DNA from: Eledone cirrhosa | Lineage: Eukaryota | NCBI GenBank assembly: GCA_964016885.1 | Contig: OZ024751.1 | Coordinates: forward strand, 25,172,001-25,236,000 | Direction: 5' to 3' | Length of the DNA stretch: 64,000 nt | Part shown: piece by piece, positions 2,109 through 49,027 of the stretch | Layout: every line of letters starts with the position of its first letter | Position numbering within the stretch: position 1 is the first letter of the stretch | Notes under the pieces: generated by a model | Database searches by the model: none | The model's input: only the letters and a program-made list of their open reading frames with translations | Told to the model about the DNA's origin: nothing | Program-made: the position numbers and the translations under genes

Positions 2109-3315
2109 TATATGCGCGTGTGTATATATATATACATATACATAGGTATATCTGTTTAACTATCTATTCATATATACATACACATACAACCACCTCCATA
2201 CGTATATTTAAATACATTAAAAATTATATATGTACATACAAACATATATATATGTGTATGTATACATGTATGTTTATATATATATAAATATATATATATA
2301 TTTATATATATATGTATATGCTCACAAACACCGAGGTCAACTTTTCTTTTCAACCTTCTAGGATCGATGAAATTGATAGGAGTTAATTTGATTGGCTCTT
2401 TTTAAATCACCTATAAAGCACATCAATGAATATTATTATGTGTATGTCTGTCTATCTGTGTGTGTGTGTGTGTGTGTGAGTGTGTATCTGCATGTATGTT
2501 TGTGTGTGTGAGAGAGGTTACATGCAACATATTTAATGTCACGACCCAAAATAACAAGAAAATGACTAAATGCTTAATTATATATTAGACAAATAATAAA
2601 AAGGCCTCTGCCGCCACCACCACACCTCTCTCAGGAAGAAGAAGATGACTTGGCGATATCTGAAAGTGTCGCTTTTGACTTGGGAAAATCCGGCTCCAAT
2701 TTGAGCAACACAAAGTATTTCAACAGCTCTACGGGTGAATCATCATACTCTCTTTCTTTAAACCCACGCTCTGCTATTTTCATCATTTCCATTAATTCTA
2801 AATCTTATGTTAAACGGAATAGAAAAAATAAAAGAAGAAATGGTAAAATATCAAATTTTCTAGATTTTATTGTTAATTACGATTTGAACATAAAAATAAC
2901 TCGTATTTCGATTACTTATGTAAAATATTCTAATTGCCTGGAGTGAAATCCCAACACAAAACAGTTTTTCACCATCAGATCTTCCATGAAATAACTATTG
3001 GCCATTTCATCTGGTTCTCATTCATCAGAGCTAGCGTAATTCAATTAAAGATTTTATCATTTTTCCTCCTAATGGATTATACAACAAATGTATGTATACA
3101 TCTCACACACTTTCCTTTCCGAACAAATATACAGCAGAGAGCATTTAAGTATCATTAATACTGCAGCTTGTCAATGGTTACAGAAACTGTCTTACTTTAG
3201 ATTGATTATCGATTCCATGCCCTACAGATTGGAAAGAAACAAAATTTCATTTTCACGTCAAGTATATCTCTGTGTTATAAATTCTGGTACCTAAAACCTA
3301 TCTATTATTAGGTAT

Positions 3316-6855: not shown

Positions 6856-7070
6856 CATATATCCCAAGGCTCTGATACCATCAACACTATAAACACAGAG
6901 CTGGCATATCTAAGAAATGACTAACTGCCTGATGAGGTCATAGCCATTCAATGGCTATCATCGAAATATATATATAGCAGTAAATAAAGAATTATGAGTT
7001 CATTCAATTGACTTATCTTTCGTCACTATATATATACATATATATATATTGTATATATATATGTATCTAA

Positions 7071-7799: not shown

Positions 7800-9060
7800 T
7801 AAATTGAGCAGAAGCAACGGAATCCAGGTACCAACAGGTGAGATGATAAAGGAAATTGATACTGAAGAAGGATACAAATATTTAGGTGTTCTGGAGGTTG
7901 ATGACATCAAGAACAAAAATAAATGAAGGAATTGATAAGATCTGAACAATTGTGGAGAGTAAGGAGCGTATTAAAGTCACATCTGAACAGTAGGAATGCC
8001 ATAAGTGCAGTAAATTCCCGAGCTGTGTCTATTATTAGCTACAGTGGGGGAATTCTGAGGTGGAATGTTGCTGAACAAAAAGAAATGGATAGAAAGACTT
8101 GGAAGCTATTGACTATCTACAACATGTTCCACAAGAGGAGTGATGTCGGATGGAGATGAGGACTGTGTTCAGATGGAGAAAAACAACCTACACAAATACA
8201 TGACTGATAGTAGGGAGCCAATGCTCAGAATTGTACTGTAGGAGTGGACAATTGACCAGGGGATGTCCAAGAAGGAAATAACAACTAGGAGAAAGAGCAA
8301 CCTTCATGAAAAATCCCTTCATAGTACCTTCTTTGAGAACACTGAATTTAGAGATCCACAGACATGGAACTGGTTGAAAAGAGGAGACATTAAAAAGGCT
8401 ACAGAAGGAATGCTAATGGCTGCGCAAGAGCAGGTCCTCAAAACGAAGTGGCTGAAACACCATATTTACAAGGAGGAGGCTAGCCCACTGTGTAGGATCT
8501 GTGGAGAGAGAGAGGAGACTGTGGCTCACATTGTATCCGAGTGTAAACACCTAGCCCAGACTCACTATAAAGGCTGGAGACATGATGTGATGGGCAGGGT
8601 GATCTACTGGCACCTATTAAAAGTAAACAATTTACCACATTCTGAGAAGTGGTATGAGCATAAGCCAGAGTCGGTGATAGAAAACGATCAGGTGAATGTG
8701 CTGTGGGATTTTAGGATACAGACAGACAAGAAACTGGAACACAATAGACCTGACCTGGTGGTTTTGGACAAGGAAAAAAGATCGTGCCTGTTTGTGGATG
8801 TACCCTTAACATTCGACACGAGAGTGCAAGAGAAGGAGAGGGTACTATCTCAAAGATTTTCCAAGGATGGTTAAAGAAAATTGGTCCCGTCCCTCTTTTT
8901 GGAACACTGCAAAAGGCATGCCTGCTGGGAACAGCAAGAACCCTCCGATACGTCCTGAATATCTGAGGCTGCAGGTAGTGGCTTGATATTCATTTCAACA
9001 AACTTTCCAGTTAAATAACATCAATGACTGAGACTCAAAGAACAACAATAATAATAATAA
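7800..9060 (+). mobile_element. 5'-truncated, disrupted R4/Dong-type non-LTR retrotransposon (RT thumb, CCHC knuckle, RLE)
   Basis: GYKYLGV, RVRSVLKSHLN..DRKT, CRICGEREETVAHIVSEC, RHD, NRPDLVV motifs; frameshifts and a stop; 3' UTR runs into (TAA)n. Confidence 0.9.
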
Positions 9061-10036
9061 TACAGAAACATGTTGGTGAAAAACGAAACGATTTGGTACA
9101 ATCGAGAGAAAAGAAGTTAGCAGATGAGATAAGGAATTGATAGAAAAGTTTTAAGAACAGTTAGAAGAATGTAAGAAAAATAAAGGACTGCTAAAATACA
9201 CTTGGATGGGAGAGAGACGAATCTCTTTAAATATTATAATAAAAATCTTGACAATAACAGTGACGTCAATGTTTCCGTTTTCCTCATGTTTATTAGGTCT
9301 TTTTTTCTAAATTTAAATGTACAGCATTAATTTATAAAGAAAATGAAAGTTTAATTTTCTTTTTATTGTAAACACAGCACCTTACTGGGATCTTGTGAGA
9401 AGTGTTATGATGAGACAAAGCCAAAAATCTAAAAAGAACTTGAAAATGGGGCTAGAAGTATATTCATAGATTCACAGAAAAATCAATCGCAACAAGAGTC
9501 TTTCAGATTAGAAGGAGACTGAAAATGGAGACAGAAAGCTATATTTTCTGAGTGTAGCATGGAATATATTCTCAGCTATAATTGGAAAGTAGTATTCAAG
9601 CAGATTGCGATTGTTTTTATTCTTTGTAACCATTCTTAGAAAATGTTAAACAACATAAACCGCAAACCAAGAAGCAAAAAGAGGCAAACGTGTTACAATA
9701 ATGAGACGAAGCTGATATTAGAAGAGATGAAGAAATAATTGTAACAGAAGAACATTTCGAGAAAGAAATGTAAGTACGTGGAATAGGCAGCGAAATAAGT
9801 GCAAAATATAAAGGCAAATATATTGTTGAATGTTATTTTGATATAAATAGAAGGAAATAACAATAGAGTAGTGCGATTAAATTGTTACTTGAAGACAAAT
9901 TCGGAATAATTTCTTTTAATACCCTTTTTTATGGAGTTGAAAACATAACGGCGATTGATTCAGATGCGTTATATTTTGAAAATAAGGAATGGATTTATAT
10001 TAGTTGTTTCAAATTTGTTCTTATATACTTTGATGA

Positions 10037-13750: not shown

Positions 13751-13985
13751 GTGTATCTCACAAACCTTAGAATAAAAATTGATGAACTCAGCAAAACAAA
13801 ATAAAATAGGGAAAAAACTACCGCAAAACTACTTATGAAAATCTTGAAACCATTAATAGGGAAGCTTTTGAAATTGTTTCTAAACTTGGGATTGAATACA
13901 CGACTGAACCATTCATATCTAAAACACCGAAGTTAAATATGAAAGATCATAAGAAGAATTTTGAATCTGTCAGACTTATAGCTCC

Positions 13986-14153
13986 ATAGGGTCGGACGCC
14001 ATGTTTTCCAGCATAGTTACGCCCCTTTACGATCTGAGTTCAAATCCCGCCGAGGTTGACTTTGCCTTTCATCCTTACGGGGCTCGATAAAATAAAGTAC
14101 CAGTAATGAACTGGGTAATTGCTGGCCTTGTGCCTAAAGTAGAAACAATTATT
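13986..14153 (+). mobile_element. SINE A
   Basis: B box and 3' end match the family. Confidence 0.9.
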
Positions 14154-14735
14154 TTTAAAAACATCTTGGGTAGAATCATACCAGTTCTAAAGTTGACCTC
14201 GGTAATTATTAAATTGATAAATTTGACCTCGGTAATTATTTCCCTTCTTTTGAACTAAATAATTTACCTCATAACATTATAACCTTCTAAGTTATATATA
14301 AAAAGAAAAAAAAATATCAATTATCAAATCGTTTTCCAGTCATATAATTTCAAAATCAAATTATAAATAAACAAATTTTGTAATCCTAATTCTTTCTCCC
14401 CTTTATTATTATATTTTACTACTTTCGTTTCCCAAAATATTTTTTTATTTTTTCCTTTGATATGATATATATATTTTTTAATTTAATACCTATTTTAATT
14501 GATTATAAGCAACATATAAACTAAATAACGGTCAATTTTTTGTTTTATTTTTTTGACCAACCTAAATGCGTCATACTTTAAATAATTTTTTAAAGCGTTT
14601 AAACCAACTGTAATTATTCTTCGACTCATGTAACCTCCGATGTGTTGAGATTTTTCTAGTCATATGCTTGGTAGTCACCAATCTATCCAGCTCGTAGGCT
14701 ATCAGCATATCATAAAAATTCATACATCTCCTATG

Positions 14736-14806
14736 TATTTTGTCTGACGAGGACATGTTCTGTTTTATGTGAGACATAAACCTTGCCTCTTCGAAATATA
14801 TATAAT
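14736..14806 (+). ncRNA. Hammerhead ribozyme disrupted by a SINE
   Basis: tattttgt-CTGACGA-g..tttatgt/gag/acataaa..c-GAAA-tatata-TA; stem I partner atgaaata lies beyond the SINE. Confidence 0.7.
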
Positions 14807-14993
14807 TGTTTCTTCTTTTGGCACAAAGCCAGCATTTAACCCAGTGCATTACTGGTACTTTATTTTATCGACTCCGTAAGGATGAAAGGCAAAGTTAGCC
14901 TCGGAGGGATTTGAACTCAGATCATAAAGGGCCATAACTCTATTCTGCAGCGCATGGGATCCGACCCTCTACCGGTACTGTCAAACTACCGCC
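14803..14993 (-). mobile_element. SINE A inserted into a hammerhead motif
   Basis: 18-bp TSD cttcgaaatat(a/g)tataat at 14789-14806 and 14994-15011. Confidence 0.9.
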
Positions 14994-16319: not shown

Positions 16320-16880
16320 TGGCACTCCGTCGGTTTCGACACCGGGTGCTTCAGTTGATTCGATCAACGGAACACCCTGTACATGAAATTAACGTGTGGT
16401 TGAACACTTATATAGTTACGTATCCTTAACGTTGTTATCAGGGAGATTCAGCGTGACACAGTATAATCGAGGCTGGCCTTTCGAATTACAGGTACAACTC
16501 TGCAAGATTAGTGGACTGGAGCAACGTGAAATAAAGTATCTTGCTATACAATTATGATAATATTTCATCCATCGTATACACTAACCGCTAAGTCTCGCGT
16601 CTTCACGCTGTGATTATATTAAGATTATATTGGAAAGACGGTAGTTCGTGAGTTCGATTTCCGGCAGCATATTGTATCCTTGGGGAAGATGTTTTATTTC
16701 ATGTTGTTCCTAGAGCATTAAGCTCTACTTGAAATTCATATGACATGTCACGCTGAATCACATAGTGAACTACGCTAAGGATACACGTGTTAGTGGAATG
16801 CCCAGATACTTGGATGACAATTTCATGAGTCAATTTCCGTAGTTCGTACAAGTGAAACTCTCGCCGCCGGAACCGACAGA
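16320..16880. mobile_element. Two divergent, oppositely oriented SINE B-related copies
   Basis: 16320-16545 (-) and about 16640-16880 (+) share the core and tgtcacgctgaatc..taaggatac segments. Confidence 0.6.
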
Positions 16881-18342: not shown

Positions 18343-18537
18343 AACGAAGGAATTGTGGTAAGGAACCAGATGGACCATAACGCACCAGAGTACTCAATAC
18401 TTAGGGTAGTAGAGTGGGTAATAGGAAAACGTATGACCCCGACGGCAGAGCTAAAGCCGTTTCGATGGCTATTTCTGTTCTGAAATAGCCGTCGAAACGG
18501 CTTGAGCTCTGCCGTCGGGGTCATACTTTTTCCTATT
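18343..18537 (-). mobile_element. Palindromic half-hammerhead element, copy 1
   Basis: Palindrome 18420-18537 plus unique tail; flanked by TA-rich tracts. Confidence 0.8.
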
Positions 18538-18694
18538 TATATATATATATTTTATATATATATATACATATGTAGATATATCAGGATCGAACCAGTTTTA
18601 AACTAGTTAGACCATTACTCGATACGTGGGATAGTAGAGTATAGTTATATTAAAAAGTGCAAATAGATAGATCGATTGGTGGGTAGGTAGATCG

Positions 18695-19114: not shown

Positions 19115-19200
19115 TACACACACACTCACACATATTATATATATATATATATATAGTAACGAAACATAAGTCAATTGCATGGACTCATAATCCTTTATTT

Positions 19201-19256
19201 ATTGCTATATATATTTCGATGATAACCATTGAATGGCTATGACCTCATCAGGCAGT
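19201..19256 (-). ncRNA. Minimal type-I hammerhead ribozyme (same family as 6924)
   Basis: actgc-CTGATGA-stem II-GAAA-tatata-TA-gcaat. Confidence 0.75.
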
Positions 19257-19595
19257 TAGTCAGTTCTTAGATATGTCACCTCTCTGTGTAAAGTGTTGAT
19301 GGTATCAGAGCCTTGGGACATATGAGCTTGTTAGGAATACTTTGATGTTGTCAGCAGGAATAGTCTTGATTCTCATTGGTCAGTTTGTAGATGGTAGTAG
19401 GTTGGTATTTGACCCCAAAGAGGCAGGTGGTTCTGCAAGGTTCAAATGGTCAGGCAAGCTGACAATAGTTCCGCATGACTGATTTTCACAAAAGGCATTC
19501 TTGGTCAGATATATTTTCAAATAAGGTTAATAGTATGAAGTAGATACTACAGGTCATTCTTAAATTGAGGAATTTATGTGGAGTGGTGCTACTGA

Positions 19596-22920: not shown

Positions 22921-23262
22921 GTGGAGGTACATGGCTTAGTGGTTAGAGCATTGGGCTTTCAATCGAAAGGTTGTGAGTTCAATTCTCGGACCGGGTGATG
23001 CGTTGTGATTTTGAGCAATACATTTTATTTCACGTTGCCCCAGTTTACTCAGCTGTAGAAATGAGTTGCGATATCACTGGTACCAAGCGGTATCGGCCAT
23101 AGCCTTTCCCTTGGACATCATCGGTGGCGTGGAGAGGGGAGACTGGTAAGTATGGACGACTGTTGGTCTTCCACAAACAATCTTGCCCGGACTTGTGCCT
23201 CGGAGAGAAATGTTCTAGGTGTAAATCCCTTGGTTATTCGTGACCGAAAGAGGTGTTTACCT
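22921..23262 (+). mobile_element. tRNA-derived SINE family B
   Basis: Head tggcttagtggttagag..gagttcaattctc, core ttgagcaa..ttatttcacgttg. Confidence 0.8.
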
Positions 23263-24980: not shown

Positions 24981-25038
24981 TAAAGTGAAATGACAGGACG
25001 CCAAATACATTGAATGTTTTAATTTTTTATTTCTGCAA

Positions 25039-25096
25039 ACACTATACACATTTCAGTGGCCAGGTTGTGTAAGAACCCGGAGACCTCATCAGGTGT
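25039..25096 (-). ncRNA. Type-I hammerhead ribozyme
   Basis: acac-CTGATGA-g..ccgggtt/cttacac/aacctgg..t-GAAA-tgtgta-TA-gtgt. Confidence 0.65.
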
Positions 25097-25318
25097 AAAT
25101 TGCGTAGTAGATGTATACGAATGGAATCGAACGGAGTGATGGTAAACTTTCAGGAAACAAGCAAAGAAAAAGAGAGAGGAAAAAGTGTGTGCAATGTTTT
25201 TGACCCAGAGACGGACGTAGTAGCATGCTTCCACATTGCTCTCCCGCCTCTGAGTTAACGTTGCAGAATGACCAATTCTACCCAATGGTAAACCACCAAA
25301 TTATATATATATATATAT

Positions 25319-28679: not shown

Positions 28680-29050
28680 TTATTCAAAATGTTAACAAAT
28701 GAAAAATATTCGCATAATCAAAATATATACTTTATTATATATATTTCAAAGGTACTGTGGTGTTTTTTCAGTACGTATTGACTGCCAATACGGGAATTGA
28801 ATAATCAAGACCGTAGCGGTATGTCATATATCAAATCATATATTTTGTCTGATGAGGACGTACTGAAAGAAACAGCACAGTACCTTTGAAATATATATAA
28901 TAAAGTATATATTTTGATAATGCGAATATTTTTCATTTTTTAACATTTTGAACAATATTAAAAACTCCATGAAAACTCTTTTGTTGAGTGCTTCTAATCT
29001 ATTGTAAAACTGTATTCGTTGAGTAATCAATGAACCATATTAACTTTTGG

Positions 29051-32450: not shown

Positions 32451-32500
<50 letters not shown>
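32320..32500. repeat. (TTC)n(TTA)n microsatellite
   Basis: Direct reading. Confidence 0.97.
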
Positions 32501-32501
<1 letters not shown>

Positions 32502-33302
32502 TGTTCTTTGAGTCTCAGTCATTGATGTTAGTTAACTGGAAAGTTTGTTGAAATGAATATCAAGCCACTACCTGCAGCCTCAGATATTCAGGACGTATCA
32601 GAGGGTTCTTGCTGTTCCCAGCAAGCATGCCTTTTGAAGTGTTCCAAAAAGCGGGGCGGCACCAATTTTCTTTAACCATCCTTGGAAACTCTTTGAGATA
32701 GTACCTAGTGCGCCTATGACAATCGGGACCACTTTGACTTCATGGCAGTTCCAAATCCTTTTTACCACCCACTTTAAGTCCTGGTATCGGTTAATTTTCT
32801 CCCTCTCCTTCTCTTGCACTCTCGTGTCGAATGGGCAGGCTACATCCACAACCAGGCACGATCTTTTTTCCTTGTCCAAAACCACCAGGTCAGGTCTATT
32901 GTGCTCCAGTTTCTTGTCCGTCTGTATCCTAAAATCCAACAGCATCTTCACCTGATCGTTTTCTATCACCGACTCTGGCTTATGCTCATACCACTTCTCA
33001 GAATGTGGTAAATTGTTTACTTTGCATAGGTGCCAGTGGATCACGCTGCCCATCACATCATGTCTCCAGCCTTTATAGTGAGTCTGGGATAGGTGTTTAC
33101 ACTCGGATACAATGTGAGCCACAGTCTCCTCTCTCTCTCCACAGATCCTACACAGTGGGCTAGCCTCCTCCTTGTAAATATGGTGTTTCACCCATTTCGT
33201 TTTGAGGGCCTTCTCTTGCGCAGCCATTAGCATTACTTCTGTAGCCTCTTTAAGGTCTCCTCTTTTCAACCAGTTCCATGTCTGTGGATCTCTATACTCA
33301 GT
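32451..33302 (-). mobile_element. Second 5'-truncated copy of the same R4/Dong-type element
   Basis: 223-aa ORF with CCHC, RHD, RPD..D..EK..Y and PIVIGALG; 3' UTR nearly identical to the 7800-9060 copy; ends in (TAA)n followed by (GAA)n. Confidence 0.92.
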
Positions 33303-35474
33303 TTTTATATTCAGCTGAACTCTTGACGTGCACGTTGTTTACTGTTTCAGGGTCGAAAATGTCCATATTTTCTTTTTTATGGAGAAGCGATTAAAAAAAA
33401 AAAAAAAAAATTTGAATATTCGGGTTTAAAGCCCGAATATTGAGAGATTTCCCCTCCTTGAAACCAAGGTGGGTACCTTATGCTTCGTTATCGACAAGAA
33501 AATGCAAAAAATGATACTTTAATAATAATAATAATGTATTTTATGTTTATTTCAAGATGGCTTCTTAGTCATATGACTCGGATAACTTAAAACAAAACTG
33601 AAATAAACATTTGAAAAAATGAAATAAACTTAGAAGAAAAAAATTTTTTTTTTCCTTTTAATTCATAAAAGTAACTTATTTAACATATTCGTTGGCATTT
33701 CATTTTATATATTTCAATTGAATATAGAAATTATTGAAACGTTATCTATAAAGATTAATACACCATTATTTGTGTGTTGTTGACGTCACTACTTCTGAAT
33801 TTGCTCTGTAGAAATAAAGTTCAGAGGTCAAGCTGAAGTTCATATACTCAGTCATACCTTCTTATCTGAAGCCATCTTGCACACTCGGACATTCGATCAA
33901 ATATATTTTGATAGCAACACAAAATTTGTTTAGCCTACAATATAAAACTCCAAATTGAAGCAATCATTTTAAAAAGAAAGAATAACTAACTTGTTTTAAT
34001 TATATTTTATTCTATGTAAAAATATATCATGTAAATACAATTTAATAGAAAAAGAAGAAAAAAATTAATTGAGAAGAAAAATGGAATGTAAAAAAAGAAA
34101 ATACAAAAAAGCGGAAAAGTAAGGGGATGGCAATGGTTCTGGGGTCAAAGAAGAACGGAGAGGGGAGGGTGTGGGTGATCGGGTTCTTGACCTATGGCGC
34201 GGTAGTAATGGGGCTGTGACCCGCGGGCAAAACCGCAAAAGCATTCCCGTAGGCTAGCATTTTGCTCGAATTAAAATAGTGTGGATATGGAACATGCGGC
34301 TCATTTTTTGGGGGTTAAATGAATGAAAGCAATATTTCTCTTAACGTCCTTTTCCACACGAAATCGCATTATATATTGTATGAGAGAACAATTCAACCTC
34401 CTCCCGCTGTAATTCTTTCCTTCGTTTTATTAACTTCCATAGAAGTTAATGTTAAACTTATACAAATCATCGACGTACCCACGTACTTTTATATAACTCT
34501 TTATAGTAATACAGTGTGCAGGGGAGCAATTGCCCGCGTAAGATGAGGACCCACTTATTTATAGATAGATAGGATAGAATAATGGGAAATATATCATTTT
34601 CTATATAGATAATTTCCAGCTGATTAGATTGGAGTGAAATAAAGTGTCTGCCTCAAAGAGAAAATGAATCATTCGGTTCAAGAAACGAACTCATGACCTT
34701 ACGGTCGAAAGACAAGCACCCTAACCACTAAGATACACATTTTCATTGTGTGCTTTAGTTCATTAAATTTACTGATTTTTAGTTAATAATTAGAAGCAGT
34801 TGGGAAATATAGAACACATTTGTGTTGGATCACAGCTGAGTTGGAAATGAAAGAAAAATATTAGGGATGGGACTGGGATAGGTTTAATAATTATGTGAAA
34901 ATATTGGAAATTATTATTACAAAATGGTCAGCATGTGGGGATTCATTTAACTATAATAGATGCTGCTAATAACGTTACGACGTCATGAATAAAAACGCAA
35001 ACATCCAGAAGTATTGATTATGTTTAGAGAAGTAAATTAGCTTCAAATGAGGGCAGCAAAAAGTTATGCAACAAAATTCAGCTTGGTTTGGTAAAGAAAA
35101 TTTAGTTAATTATTTTTCATAATAAAACCATTTTAAGCAACTGGTATAGCATTCAACCCATTTATTATGAAACTGTGGGTTTATATCTATTTTCTTTCAA
35201 TCAACCAGGTTGTCATATGTCCATATACCACAATCTTCCGTGTATACTGTGTAGTTTTGGGGGTGAGTGGTATACAACATAACTAAATGTTATACACCAA
35301 GGCTAGGCTTTTCTAGACATTGTTCTGGTCAAAAATGAGTGCGCGTTATACACGAATGTGTGCAATACACAGGGGAATACAGCAGATCGTAGGTCACACT
35401 GGATGGACTAGACTATCAGCTGTCCTTATACATCGTCAGTGACATTAGATCTACCAGAATATTAGATCTCCGTA

Positions 35475-43173: not shown

Positions 43174-43351
43174 AATGAAGGAGTTGTGGTAAGGAACCAG
43201 GTGGACCATTACGCACCAGATTACTCAATACCTAGGGTAATAGGAAAATGTTTGACCCCGACGGCAGAGCTCAAGCCGTTTGACGGCTATTTCAGTCCAG
43301 AAATAGCCGTCGAAACGGCTTGAGGTCTGCTGTCGGGGTCAAACATTTTCC

Positions 43352-43354
<3 letters not shown>
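43174..43354 (-). mobile_element. Palindromic half-hammerhead element, copy 2
   Basis: Palindrome 43240-43354, same tail. Confidence 0.8.
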
Positions 43355-48833: not shown

Positions 48834-48835
<2 letters not shown>

Positions 48836-49020
48836 CGAAGGAGGTGTGGTAAGGAACCAGATGGACCATAACGCACCAGAGTACTCAATACTTAGGGTAG
48901 TAGAGTGGGTAATATGAAAATGTTTAACCCCGACGGCAGAGCTCAAGCCATTTCGACGGCTATTTCAGTCCAGAAATAGCCGTCGAAACGGCTTGAGCTC
49001 TGCCGTCGGGGTTAAACATT

Positions 49021-49027
<7 letters not shown>
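48834..49027 (-). mobile_element. Palindromic half-hammerhead element, copy 3
   Basis: Palindrome 48912-49027, same tail. Confidence 0.8.

What the first reader, a model, noticed from the sequence alone, without database searches (positions are those of the whole stretch)
18343..18537. Palindromic element made by fold-back at hammerhead stem II, apparently three independent times
Seen: three copies (18343, 43174, 48834) share a tail and a palindrome of about 115 bp whose arm reads stem II-GAAA-cggc/ttgagctct/gccg-UC-gggg, the 3' half of a GUC hammerhead. The axis is the 6-nt loop of stem II, and CUGANGA is replaced by the mirror arm. Both arms of each copy share private variants: gtatgacccc/ggggtcatac, gtttgacccc/ggggtcaaac, gtttaacccc/ggggttaaac. 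All mirror arms stop at about the same tat next to the TA-rich flank. Inference: cDNA copied through stem II snaps back on that hairpin, self-primes, and rejoins the target by TA microhomology, so the ribozyme hairpin acts as a DNA-level turning point that also removes the catalytic core. Inverted pLTRs are known for Penelope, but I do not know of a description placing the inversion at stem II.
Basis: partly seen in the sequence, partly recalled or inferred. Interest (0 to 1): 0.85.

Follow-up and report, generated by a model that had tools for sequence, protein, structure and literature searches.

The report
Palindromes marking a retrotransposon's RNA ends
These short palindromes are pairs of very short pieces of a Penelope-like retrotransposon joined head to head, found more than 16,000 times in this genome, and their junctions likely record where the element's RNA starts and where its hammerhead ribozyme cuts.

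Summary
The three palindromes are real; the genome holds at least 16,516 such centres. Their parent is a Hydra-type Penelope-like element with intact ORFs. Its pLTR holds a type I hammerhead with core UUGANAA (U3-A8) and a loop II of about 32 nt. The 6-nt loop is a junction, not the native loop. 66 of 90 consecutive tailed arms stop in a 12-nt zone beside one A in loop II. Untemplated bases follow that A, mostly C on the cDNA, which suggests a cap. A smaller class has both arms starting exactly at the GUC cleavage site (54 of 100 rows). The tail-less arm can be the longer one (window copies 2 and 3), both arms can reach the end, and two-family chimeras occur. A single fold-back therefore fails as the general route, though short snap-backs do occur at junctions. 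Best reading: two target-primed cDNAs run off the RNA 5' end and are joined. Against it: long copies mostly pass that point, and no 5'-end data were available.

The parts
18343..18420 (-). Copy 1 tail: the stretch between the two element 3' ends (inferred RT start sites); it is the 5' UTR in full-length elements
18421..18475 (-). Copy 1 tailed arm: hammerhead 3' half (stem II 3' strand, GAAA, stem III, GUC, stem I 3' strand); predicted cut between 18441 and 18440
18476..18481 (.). Copy 1 junction; on the minus strand it matches the putative +1 hexamer with two substitutions, so the tailed arm likely reached +1 here
   Evidence: inference
18482..18536 (+). Copy 1 tail-less arm, ending at the proximal 3' end before a TA run
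43174..43239 (-). Copy 2 tail (12-nt internal deletion relative to copy 3)
43240..43293 (-). Copy 2 tailed arm, starting 6 nt short of the putative +1
43294..43354 (+). Copy 2 tail-less arm, starting at the putative RNA +1 (A at 43294)
48834..48911 (-). Copy 3 tail
48912..48966 (-). Copy 3 tailed arm, starting 6 nt short of the putative +1
48967..49027 (+). Copy 3 tail-less arm, starting at the putative RNA +1 (A at 48967); predicted ribozyme cut between 49007 and 49008

Best explanation
Each palindrome is two very short pieces of a Hydra-type Penelope-like element joined head to head in a TA repeat, likely made when two target-primed cDNAs ran off the 5' end of the element's RNA, an end that is likely a capped transcription start inside hammerhead loop II. 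Steps: (1) Shown: the parent has an RT/GIY-YIG ORF, pLTRs and two fixed 3' ends, with and without tail. (2) Inferred from the Anolis element in vitro: the protein nicks both strands of a TA run and starts reverse transcription at two internal sites, here about 61 and 141 nt downstream of +1. (3) Inferred: each cDNA reaches the RNA end at the A of TTT-AGTCC and often gains an untemplated C (cap copy) or A-run. (4) Shown as sequence, inferred as process: a cDNA 3' end often snaps back for 3-10 nt, and the two 3' ends are trimmed and joined, which spreads the axis over a 12-nt zone and gives recurrent centres. (5) Inferred: a minority of templates had been cut by the U3-A8 hammerhead, giving the smaller palindromes centred on GUC^GGGG. 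(6) Inferred, weakest: long copies arise when the run-off cDNA transfers to the downstream pLTR, or from circular or multimeric RNA.
For: Parent and ends; in the 11 long loci with both ends in view, one end is tailed and one is tail-less (by eye). Arm ends among 90 consecutive tailed arms: 66 stop 12-23 nt upstream of GAAA, 5 earlier, 8 at 25-37 nt, and 11 run on beyond 55 nt. The base before the A is T 76, C 7, A 1, G 0 in 84 native long arms. In 50 of the 686 loci where both arms end at that A, the next cDNA base is C 65, G 32, T 3 of 100 (A excluded by the pattern). Among 36 arms not explained by snap-back it is C 21, G 13, T 2 (p=0.002 against one third), alike for tailed and tail-less arms; 45 of 50 loci carry exactly one tail. 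Among 115 pooled palindromes, only the tail-less arm reaches +1 in 17, only the tailed arm in 24, both in 21 and neither in 53. In 8 of 9 fetched odd loci, units start within about 2 nt of +1, several as direct restarts from +199 to +358. Four head-to-head chimeras with another hammerhead-bearing element and two with a different Hydra-like ORF (30-35% identity) need two templates. Cleavage class: 1,054 short-centre copies. In one subfamily pair, 54 of the first 100 rows of 353 have both arms at the scissile bond, 27 with no linker and 27 with a linker, 21 of which begin with A or T (by eye). Literature: two internal RT starts and cleavage plus extension of both strands (PMC11167929); internal promoter with Inr in Penelope (PMC2377424); untemplated G as cap copy (PMC4859970, PMC9341517); snap-back after full-length cDNA in R2 (PMC11371274).
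Against: 85 of the first 100 of 220 ORF-leading junctions keep native pLTR upstream of the putative +1 (by eye), so long cDNAs mostly do not stop there and a second template type or an efficient jump must be assumed. G is a frequent first base too (32 of 100), and the commonest centre type (window copies 2 and 3) starts its snap-back without a terminal base pair. The lack of T could reflect hairpin geometry, and untemplated A cannot be told from templated A/T. Of the 24 snap-back tracts that span the linker, 22 end on G, but 18 of these can also be read without a terminal C. One native long copy has G before the A (L304). 22 of 34 short tailed arms that reach the A have T before it, so some ends lie further upstream. 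Hammerhead covariation is weak: 3 double changes, each seen in one sequence, 33 of 500 shuffles as high. Rfam finds no hammerhead, and 13 long arms have C3 with A8. The chimeras were picked up by a pattern that happens to match the partner, so their frequency is unknown, and nested insertion is not excluded.
Confidence: 0.68

Rival explanations
1. Twin priming as above, but the cDNAs stop because of RNA structure: the small hairpin inside loop II, or stem II re-forming behind the enzyme and ejecting the cDNA. There is no RNA end at this place.
For: RNAfold predicts a 6-bp hairpin inside loop II whose 3' foot lies at the stop zone. Long copies pass this point seamlessly. Ends spread over 12 nt.
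Against: Stronger stems II and III are read through. Untemplated bases cluster after one exact A with a C excess. Tandem restarts begin at the same A. The inner hairpin differs between subfamilies while the end does not.
Confidence: 0.14
2. One reading: one cDNA folds back at the stem II hairpin, copies itself, and rejoins the target by TA microhomology.
For: Snap-back tracts of 3-10 nt are common at junctions. Arms nearly always belong to the same subfamily (82 of 90). It could account for some copies in which the tailed arm is the longer.
Against: No parent of the predicted form (0 of 36). The native loop II is about 32 nt. Only the tail-less arm reaches +1 in 17 of 115, and likewise in window copies 2 and 3. 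Both arms are complete, with a linker between them, in 686 loci. The tail-less end is the normal element end. Two-family chimeras occur.
Confidence: 0.07
3. Long head-to-head insertions lost their middles after insertion through palindrome (cruciform) instability, leaving short stable palindromes.
For: Long and intermediate palindromic copies exist (L024, L035, L044, L116). A class of centres joined at the 6-nt repeat of stem III looks like deletion (about half of the first 100 rows).
Against: Deletion gives no reason for ends at one A followed by an untemplated C, for a peak at the scissile bond with added A/T, or for direct restarts at +1. Only 8 of 90 arms end in the rest of loop II.
Confidence: 0.06
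4. One or a few ancestral palindromes were amplified as a MITE by a DNA transposase.
For: Palindromic form, TA flanks and high copy number; some identical centres recur.
Against: 58 distinct centres in 61 copies. The same centre recurs in different subfamilies and in both orientations to the tail. The tail is on one side only, and the parent encodes an RT.
Confidence: 0.02

Closest known systems
Hydra clade of Penelope-like elements (Craig et al. 2021, PMC8557442)
   Same: C-terminal GIY-YIG, RW(K/R), DKT and CxCX5C motifs, no CxxC inside the nuclease core, (TA)n targets, partial tandems, inverted 5'-truncated copy, tail at one end.
   Different: RWR instead of RWK; tail of about 78 nt instead of 30-40; U3-A8 core with a long loop II. 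The published cephalopod family Hydra-1_Obim has a different protein and a CUGAAGA ribozyme (supplement passages). Fixed truncation points are not described in the passages I read.
Poseidon element of Anolis in vitro (Frangieh et al. 2024, PMC11167929)
   Same: Two internal RT start sites that define the tail; cleavage and extension of both target strands; AT-rich targets; uncleaved RNA as the main template.
   Different: That work did not trace the joining step and found no RNA-seq reads ending at the ribozyme site. Here genomic copies pile up at the predicted site and at a second, upstream end.
Head-to-head Penelope junction palindromes in Adineta vaga (Arkhipova et al. 2013, PMC3846280)
   Same: Inverted pLTRs with palindromes at the junction, read as self-priming; optional tail; Inr-like motif in the pLTR.
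   Different: That paper inferred self-priming on an antisense template. The copies here fit a sense template with snap-back at the cDNA 3' end.
U3-A8 hammerheads of Schistosoma PLEs (Cervera and de la Pena 2014, PMC4209133)
   Same: Same core covariation, long helix II with an unpaired 5' base, pairs of motifs on opposite strands.
   Different: Here helix III is a full 5-6 bp stem; that paper had no in vivo evidence of cleavage.
L1 cap-derived untemplated G, L1 twin priming, R2 snap-back junctions (PMC4859970, PMC9341517, PMC11371274); retroviral strong-stop DNA (recalled)
   Same: An extra G at full-length 5' ends, two primed cDNAs joined inverted, snap-back before junction formation, and a short cDNA from an internal start to the RNA 5' end.
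   Different: Here both cDNAs copy the same 5'-proximal stretch, so the product is a symmetric palindrome of about 115 bp and is the commonest insertion type.

Membership tests
Penelope-like element (EN+) | Single ORF with RT and GIY-YIG nuclease | tested here: met
   784-aa open frames with FDI/YRDD and YIG motifs; 2,063 homologues, top hit carries PF01541. The Pfam scan of the protein itself gave 0 families.
Penelope-like element (EN+) | pLTRs from partial tandems, inverted 5'-truncated copy, tail at one end | tested here: met
   L116, L272-L291.
Penelope-like element (EN+) | Target-site duplication | tested here: inconclusive
   Flanks are TA runs on both sides, so a duplication cannot be read.
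Hydra clade | RWK, DKT, CxCX5C linker, no CCHH, (TA)n insertion | tested here: met
   RWR (variant), DKT and CNCPDRSIC in most of 22 ORFs; no CxxC between the GIY and YIG halves, by eye (definition).
Hydra clade | Placement in an RT phylogeny with reference Hydra families | not tested
   No tree was built; likeness to Hydra-1_Obim was seen only by eye in supplement passages.
Type I hammerhead ribozyme (parent pLTR) | Three stems around the core, GAAA, UH cleavage triplet | tested here: met
   88.9% of cells paired against 29-54% for slid controls; GUC in 76 of 83 arms.
Type I hammerhead ribozyme (parent pLTR) | Canonical CUGANGA core | tested here: not met
   The core is YUGANAA: U4 82, G5 72, A6 76, A8 77, A9 81 of 83, N7 variable, position 3 U 62 and C 21 (some by register shift). 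U3-A8 is a published variant. No Rfam hit.
Type I hammerhead ribozyme (parent pLTR) | Self-cleavage at the predicted bond | not testable with these tools
   Indirect only: copies pile up at the bond.
Type I hammerhead ribozyme (window palindromes) | Complete core | tested here: not met
   Only the 3' half is present in each arm.
MITE | Uniform copies with symmetric termini and a transposase partner | tested here: not met
   58 centres in 61 copies, one-sided tail, RT-encoding parent.
Non-LTR retrozyme | Tandem units each with a complete type I hammerhead | tested here: not met
   Not met by the palindromes. One derived array, L302, does have this form.

The most novel reading that the evidence does not exclude
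Penelope-like elements replicate through a retrovirus-like strong-stop step on a sense RNA. Transcription starts inside the hammerhead's loop II, so the 5' ribozyme half is missing and can be completed only by pairing with the downstream pLTR. That pairing brings the RNA ends together for strand transfer or for cleavage and circularisation. Failed transfers leave the palindromes, and an off-register transfer gives birth to a retrozyme (L302, where loop II is joined exactly at +1). The genome is then a fossil map of the cap site and of in vivo ribozyme cleavage, readable in any species with short PLE palindromes.
Probability: 0.3. Interest if true: 0.9.

Novelty: new variant of a known kind. 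Interest (0 to 1): 0.72.

Why it matters
How Penelope-like elements make their inverted and tandem structures, which RNA strand they copy, and whether their hammerheads cut in vivo are stated as open in the papers I read (PMC8557442, PMC3846280, PMC4209133, PMC11167929). Here tens of thousands of dead-end insertions give two predictions at single-base resolution: a capped start at one A inside loop II, and cleavage by a U3-A8 hammerhead at GUC. Both can be tested by 5' RACE and a cleavage assay, and intact young ORFs exist for in vitro work. The copies also argue for a sense template with two primers, and they show a retrozyme-like array arising directly from a PLE. As a by-product, at least 16,500 near-perfect hairpins are a likely large source of double-stranded RNA if transcribed (inference), and such repeats are easily mislabelled as MITEs.

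Tried and rejected
Rfam: no hammerhead in the window at gathering score or in the parent pLTR at E up to 10. Pfam: 0 families for four ORF fragments and for the intact ORF. The repeat finder on the whole window was swamped by microsatellites. One search used a gap that left out the main subfamilies and was redone. RNA evidence: no RNA holder listed. Four runs of unrecorded kind, held as contigs only, were laid on L278:3000-3900. Summed contig depth rises about tenfold at 3279 and falls in the bin after 3402 in two of them, but contigs cannot show RNA ends and these runs may include the assembly's own sample; I do not count this as support. RNAfold did not recover the full hammerhead as minimum-energy fold (z -1.1). 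A splice-acceptor explanation (loop II holds a branch-point-like and AG motif, recalled consensus) was set aside because no constant upstream exon appears at junctions. Arm-to-arm gene conversion as the cause of shared variants was rejected: 13 shared against 212 unshared deviations in 104 elements (11 of 115 dropped for short centres or heavy divergence). No tree of arms was built; concordance counts were used instead. Earlier scan findings: nothing shown.

Full report
Observation. Each has a tail of about 78 nt on one side, a palindrome of 116-118 nt and TA runs on both flanks. They fold far better than shuffles (z -18 to -23). They are not a local oddity: the exact centre pattern occurs at 16,516 places in the 3.0-Gb genome with 0 in the reversed control, and 18,189 arms carry the tail. 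Both are lower bounds because they need exact matches.

Parent. Some copies have longer arms. Following these led to L116, an inverted truncated copy plus pLTR-ORF-pLTR, and to young copies with open frames of 784 codons, some in tandem with a period of 3,542 nt. The proteins carry RWR, DKT, RT core motifs, CxCX5C and a C-terminal YIG without an internal CxxC. This matches the Hydra clade as defined in PMC8557442 (section read). No tree was built and Pfam gave no direct hit. The sense strand is the window's minus strand for the tailed arm. Full-length elements end in the same two ways as the palindrome arms, at ..CCTAT or 80 nt further at ..CGTT. In the 11 long loci with both ends in view, one end is tailed and one is not (by eye). 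PMC11167929 (parts 1-2 of 4 read) showed for an Anolis element that such ends are two internal RT start sites and that both target strands are cut and extended.

Ribozyme. The real pLTR reads ACCCC, UUGANAA, a stem II of 9-10 bp, a loop of about 32 nt, GAAA, stem III, GUC, GGGGU. In 83 distinct long arms the core positions are conserved while position 7 varies, as expected of a hammerhead. U3-A8 is a variant already reported for Schistosoma PLEs (PMC4209133, parts 1-2 of 4 read). Covariation is weak, Rfam does not score it, and 13 arms have C3 with A8. The arm in the window is therefore a true 3' half, but the 6-nt loop is a junction.

Where arms stop. I took the first 90 of the 100 listed tailed arms, in order along contig C1. 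Of these, 66 stop 12-23 nt upstream of GAAA, 5 earlier, 8 at 25-37 nt and 11 run beyond 55 nt. Sixty-one are short palindromes with 58 distinct centre strings. The zone surrounds the A of TTT-AGTCC, 231 nt before the ATG, which resembles an initiator element (consensus recalled). Native long arms have T, C or A before it and never G (0 of 84; one exception later, L304). In 686 loci both arms end at this A with a linker between them. In the first 50 the next cDNA base is C 65, G 32, T 3, and C 21, G 13, T 2 where snap-back cannot explain it (A was excluded by the pattern). An untemplated G at a 5' end is the accepted mark of a copied cap in L1 and SVA (passages of PMC4859970 and PMC9341517). 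Eight of 9 odd loci start within about 2 nt of the same A, several as direct restarts. I put an RNA end at this A at about 0.8 and a cap at about 0.7.

Second hotspot. There are 1,054 copies with a centre of at most 22 nt between the stem I strands. About half of the first 100 rows are joined across stem III and the rest mostly at the GUC. A pattern that also admits shorter arms found 353 copies in one subfamily pair. By eye, 54 of the first 100 rows have both arms starting exactly after GUC, and 21 of the 27 linkers begin with A or T (two rows are one locus). Flanks confirm free-standing mini-palindromes in TA runs. A pause at the foot of stem III would be expected one base further on, so cleavage is the better reading (about 0.8). 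PMC4209133 speaks of an absence of in vivo evidence, and PMC11167929 found no reads at the site.

One cDNA or two. Among 115 pooled palindromes (not an unbiased set), only the tail-less arm reaches +1 in 17, only the tailed arm in 24, both in 21 and neither in 53. Window copies 2 and 3 are of the first kind, which a fold-back of one cDNA cannot make. Six loci join a short arm head to head to a different element: four to another hammerhead-bearing family that itself stops near one AGT-starting point, and two to a different Hydra-like ORF. Arms match in subfamily (82 of 90) but share few private changes (13 against 212), so they come from like templates and then diverge separately. Snap-back is real but local: tracts of 3-10 nt copied from the arm's own end fill many linkers, as described for R2 after full-length cDNA (passages of PMC11371274). 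This replaces the antisense-template reading offered for Adineta junction palindromes (passages of PMC3846280).

What does not fit. Of the first 100 of 220 ORF-leading junctions, 85 keep native sequence upstream of +1. Long cDNAs therefore pass the point where short ones stop. Transfer to the downstream pLTR, circular RNA or read-through multimers could explain this; none is shown. The frequent G after the end is not fully explained. Whether short copies are themselves transcribed and serve as templates is open. No RNA 5'-end data were available.

Novelty. Inverted copies, tails, junction palindromes, U3-A8 cores and an internal promoter (passages of PMC2377424) are each known for PLEs. I found no description of fixed truncation at a start site inside loop II, of cap-like bases at PLE junctions, or of genomic copies piled at the ribozyme cut, in ten searches of the open-access library. 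Repbase, Dfam and subscription papers were not searched. Of bioRxiv 10.64898/2026.07.22.740005 I saw part 1 of 5 and passages; its supplements are closed and may bear on the retrozyme point. PMC5625713 (passages) links palindromic repeats to RNA hyper-editing but does not describe this family. Verdict: a new variant of a known kind, valuable because it turns open mechanistic questions into base-exact tests.

Noticed in passing
L302 (G000:C2:356028500-356034500, minus strand): Seven full 299-nt tandem units plus a last partial one, 99-100% identical to the young element over +1..+262. Each unit holds a complete hammerhead with 20 nt of loop II removed exactly up to the putative +1; the array starts at +1 and ends with the tail. 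It looks like a newborn non-LTR retrozyme.
   Followed up: partly
L303, L305, L306, L307, L309, L310: Direct restarts: a piece from about +1 to +199..+358 followed by another piece starting again near +1, which suggests jumps from the RNA 5' end to the 3' end of short RNAs.
   Followed up: partly
window 6908-6995 (+) and about 19175-19275 (-): Two copies of another element with a CTGATGA minimal hammerhead and a palindromic TATATA stem III; the family also appears in L061 and L215.
   Followed up: no
window 14725-14830, 28830-28930, 25020-25110 and 250-340: Further hammerhead-like motifs of other families (CTGACGA, CTGATGA or CTGAAGA cores); many similar ones occur in fetched loci.
   Followed up: no
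window 18583-18640 (-): A short fragment resembling the tail of a related family, also seen in L012 and L019, 45 nt from copy 1.
   Followed up: no
window 13819-13986 (+): Fragment of a Hydra-like ORF, 42% identical to the parent protein over 59 residues.
   Followed up: no
L041, L047, L056, L061: A second hammerhead family whose inverted piece ends near one fixed AGT-starting point about 130 nt upstream of its ribozyme: a possible independent case of the same rule.
   Followed up: partly
L143, L177, L189, L203: Runs of about 15-22 T or A placed at the putative RNA end, as if the RT added poly(A) to the cDNA on running off.
   Followed up: no
G000 rows: Cleavage-site palindromes seem enriched in the youngest (TCTTAC) subfamily and scarcer in the subfamily where many cores are C3 with A8; not counted formally.
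   Followed up: no
run X5, record 19: A 60-nt contig from a differently coded organism is itself a palindrome of this arm; it may be a relative or carry-over.
   Followed up: no
window 22926-22993 (+) and 8338-9062 / 32484-33305: A weak tRNA-like match, possibly a SINE head, and a 730-nt repeat present twice in opposite orientation at 95%.
   Followed up: no
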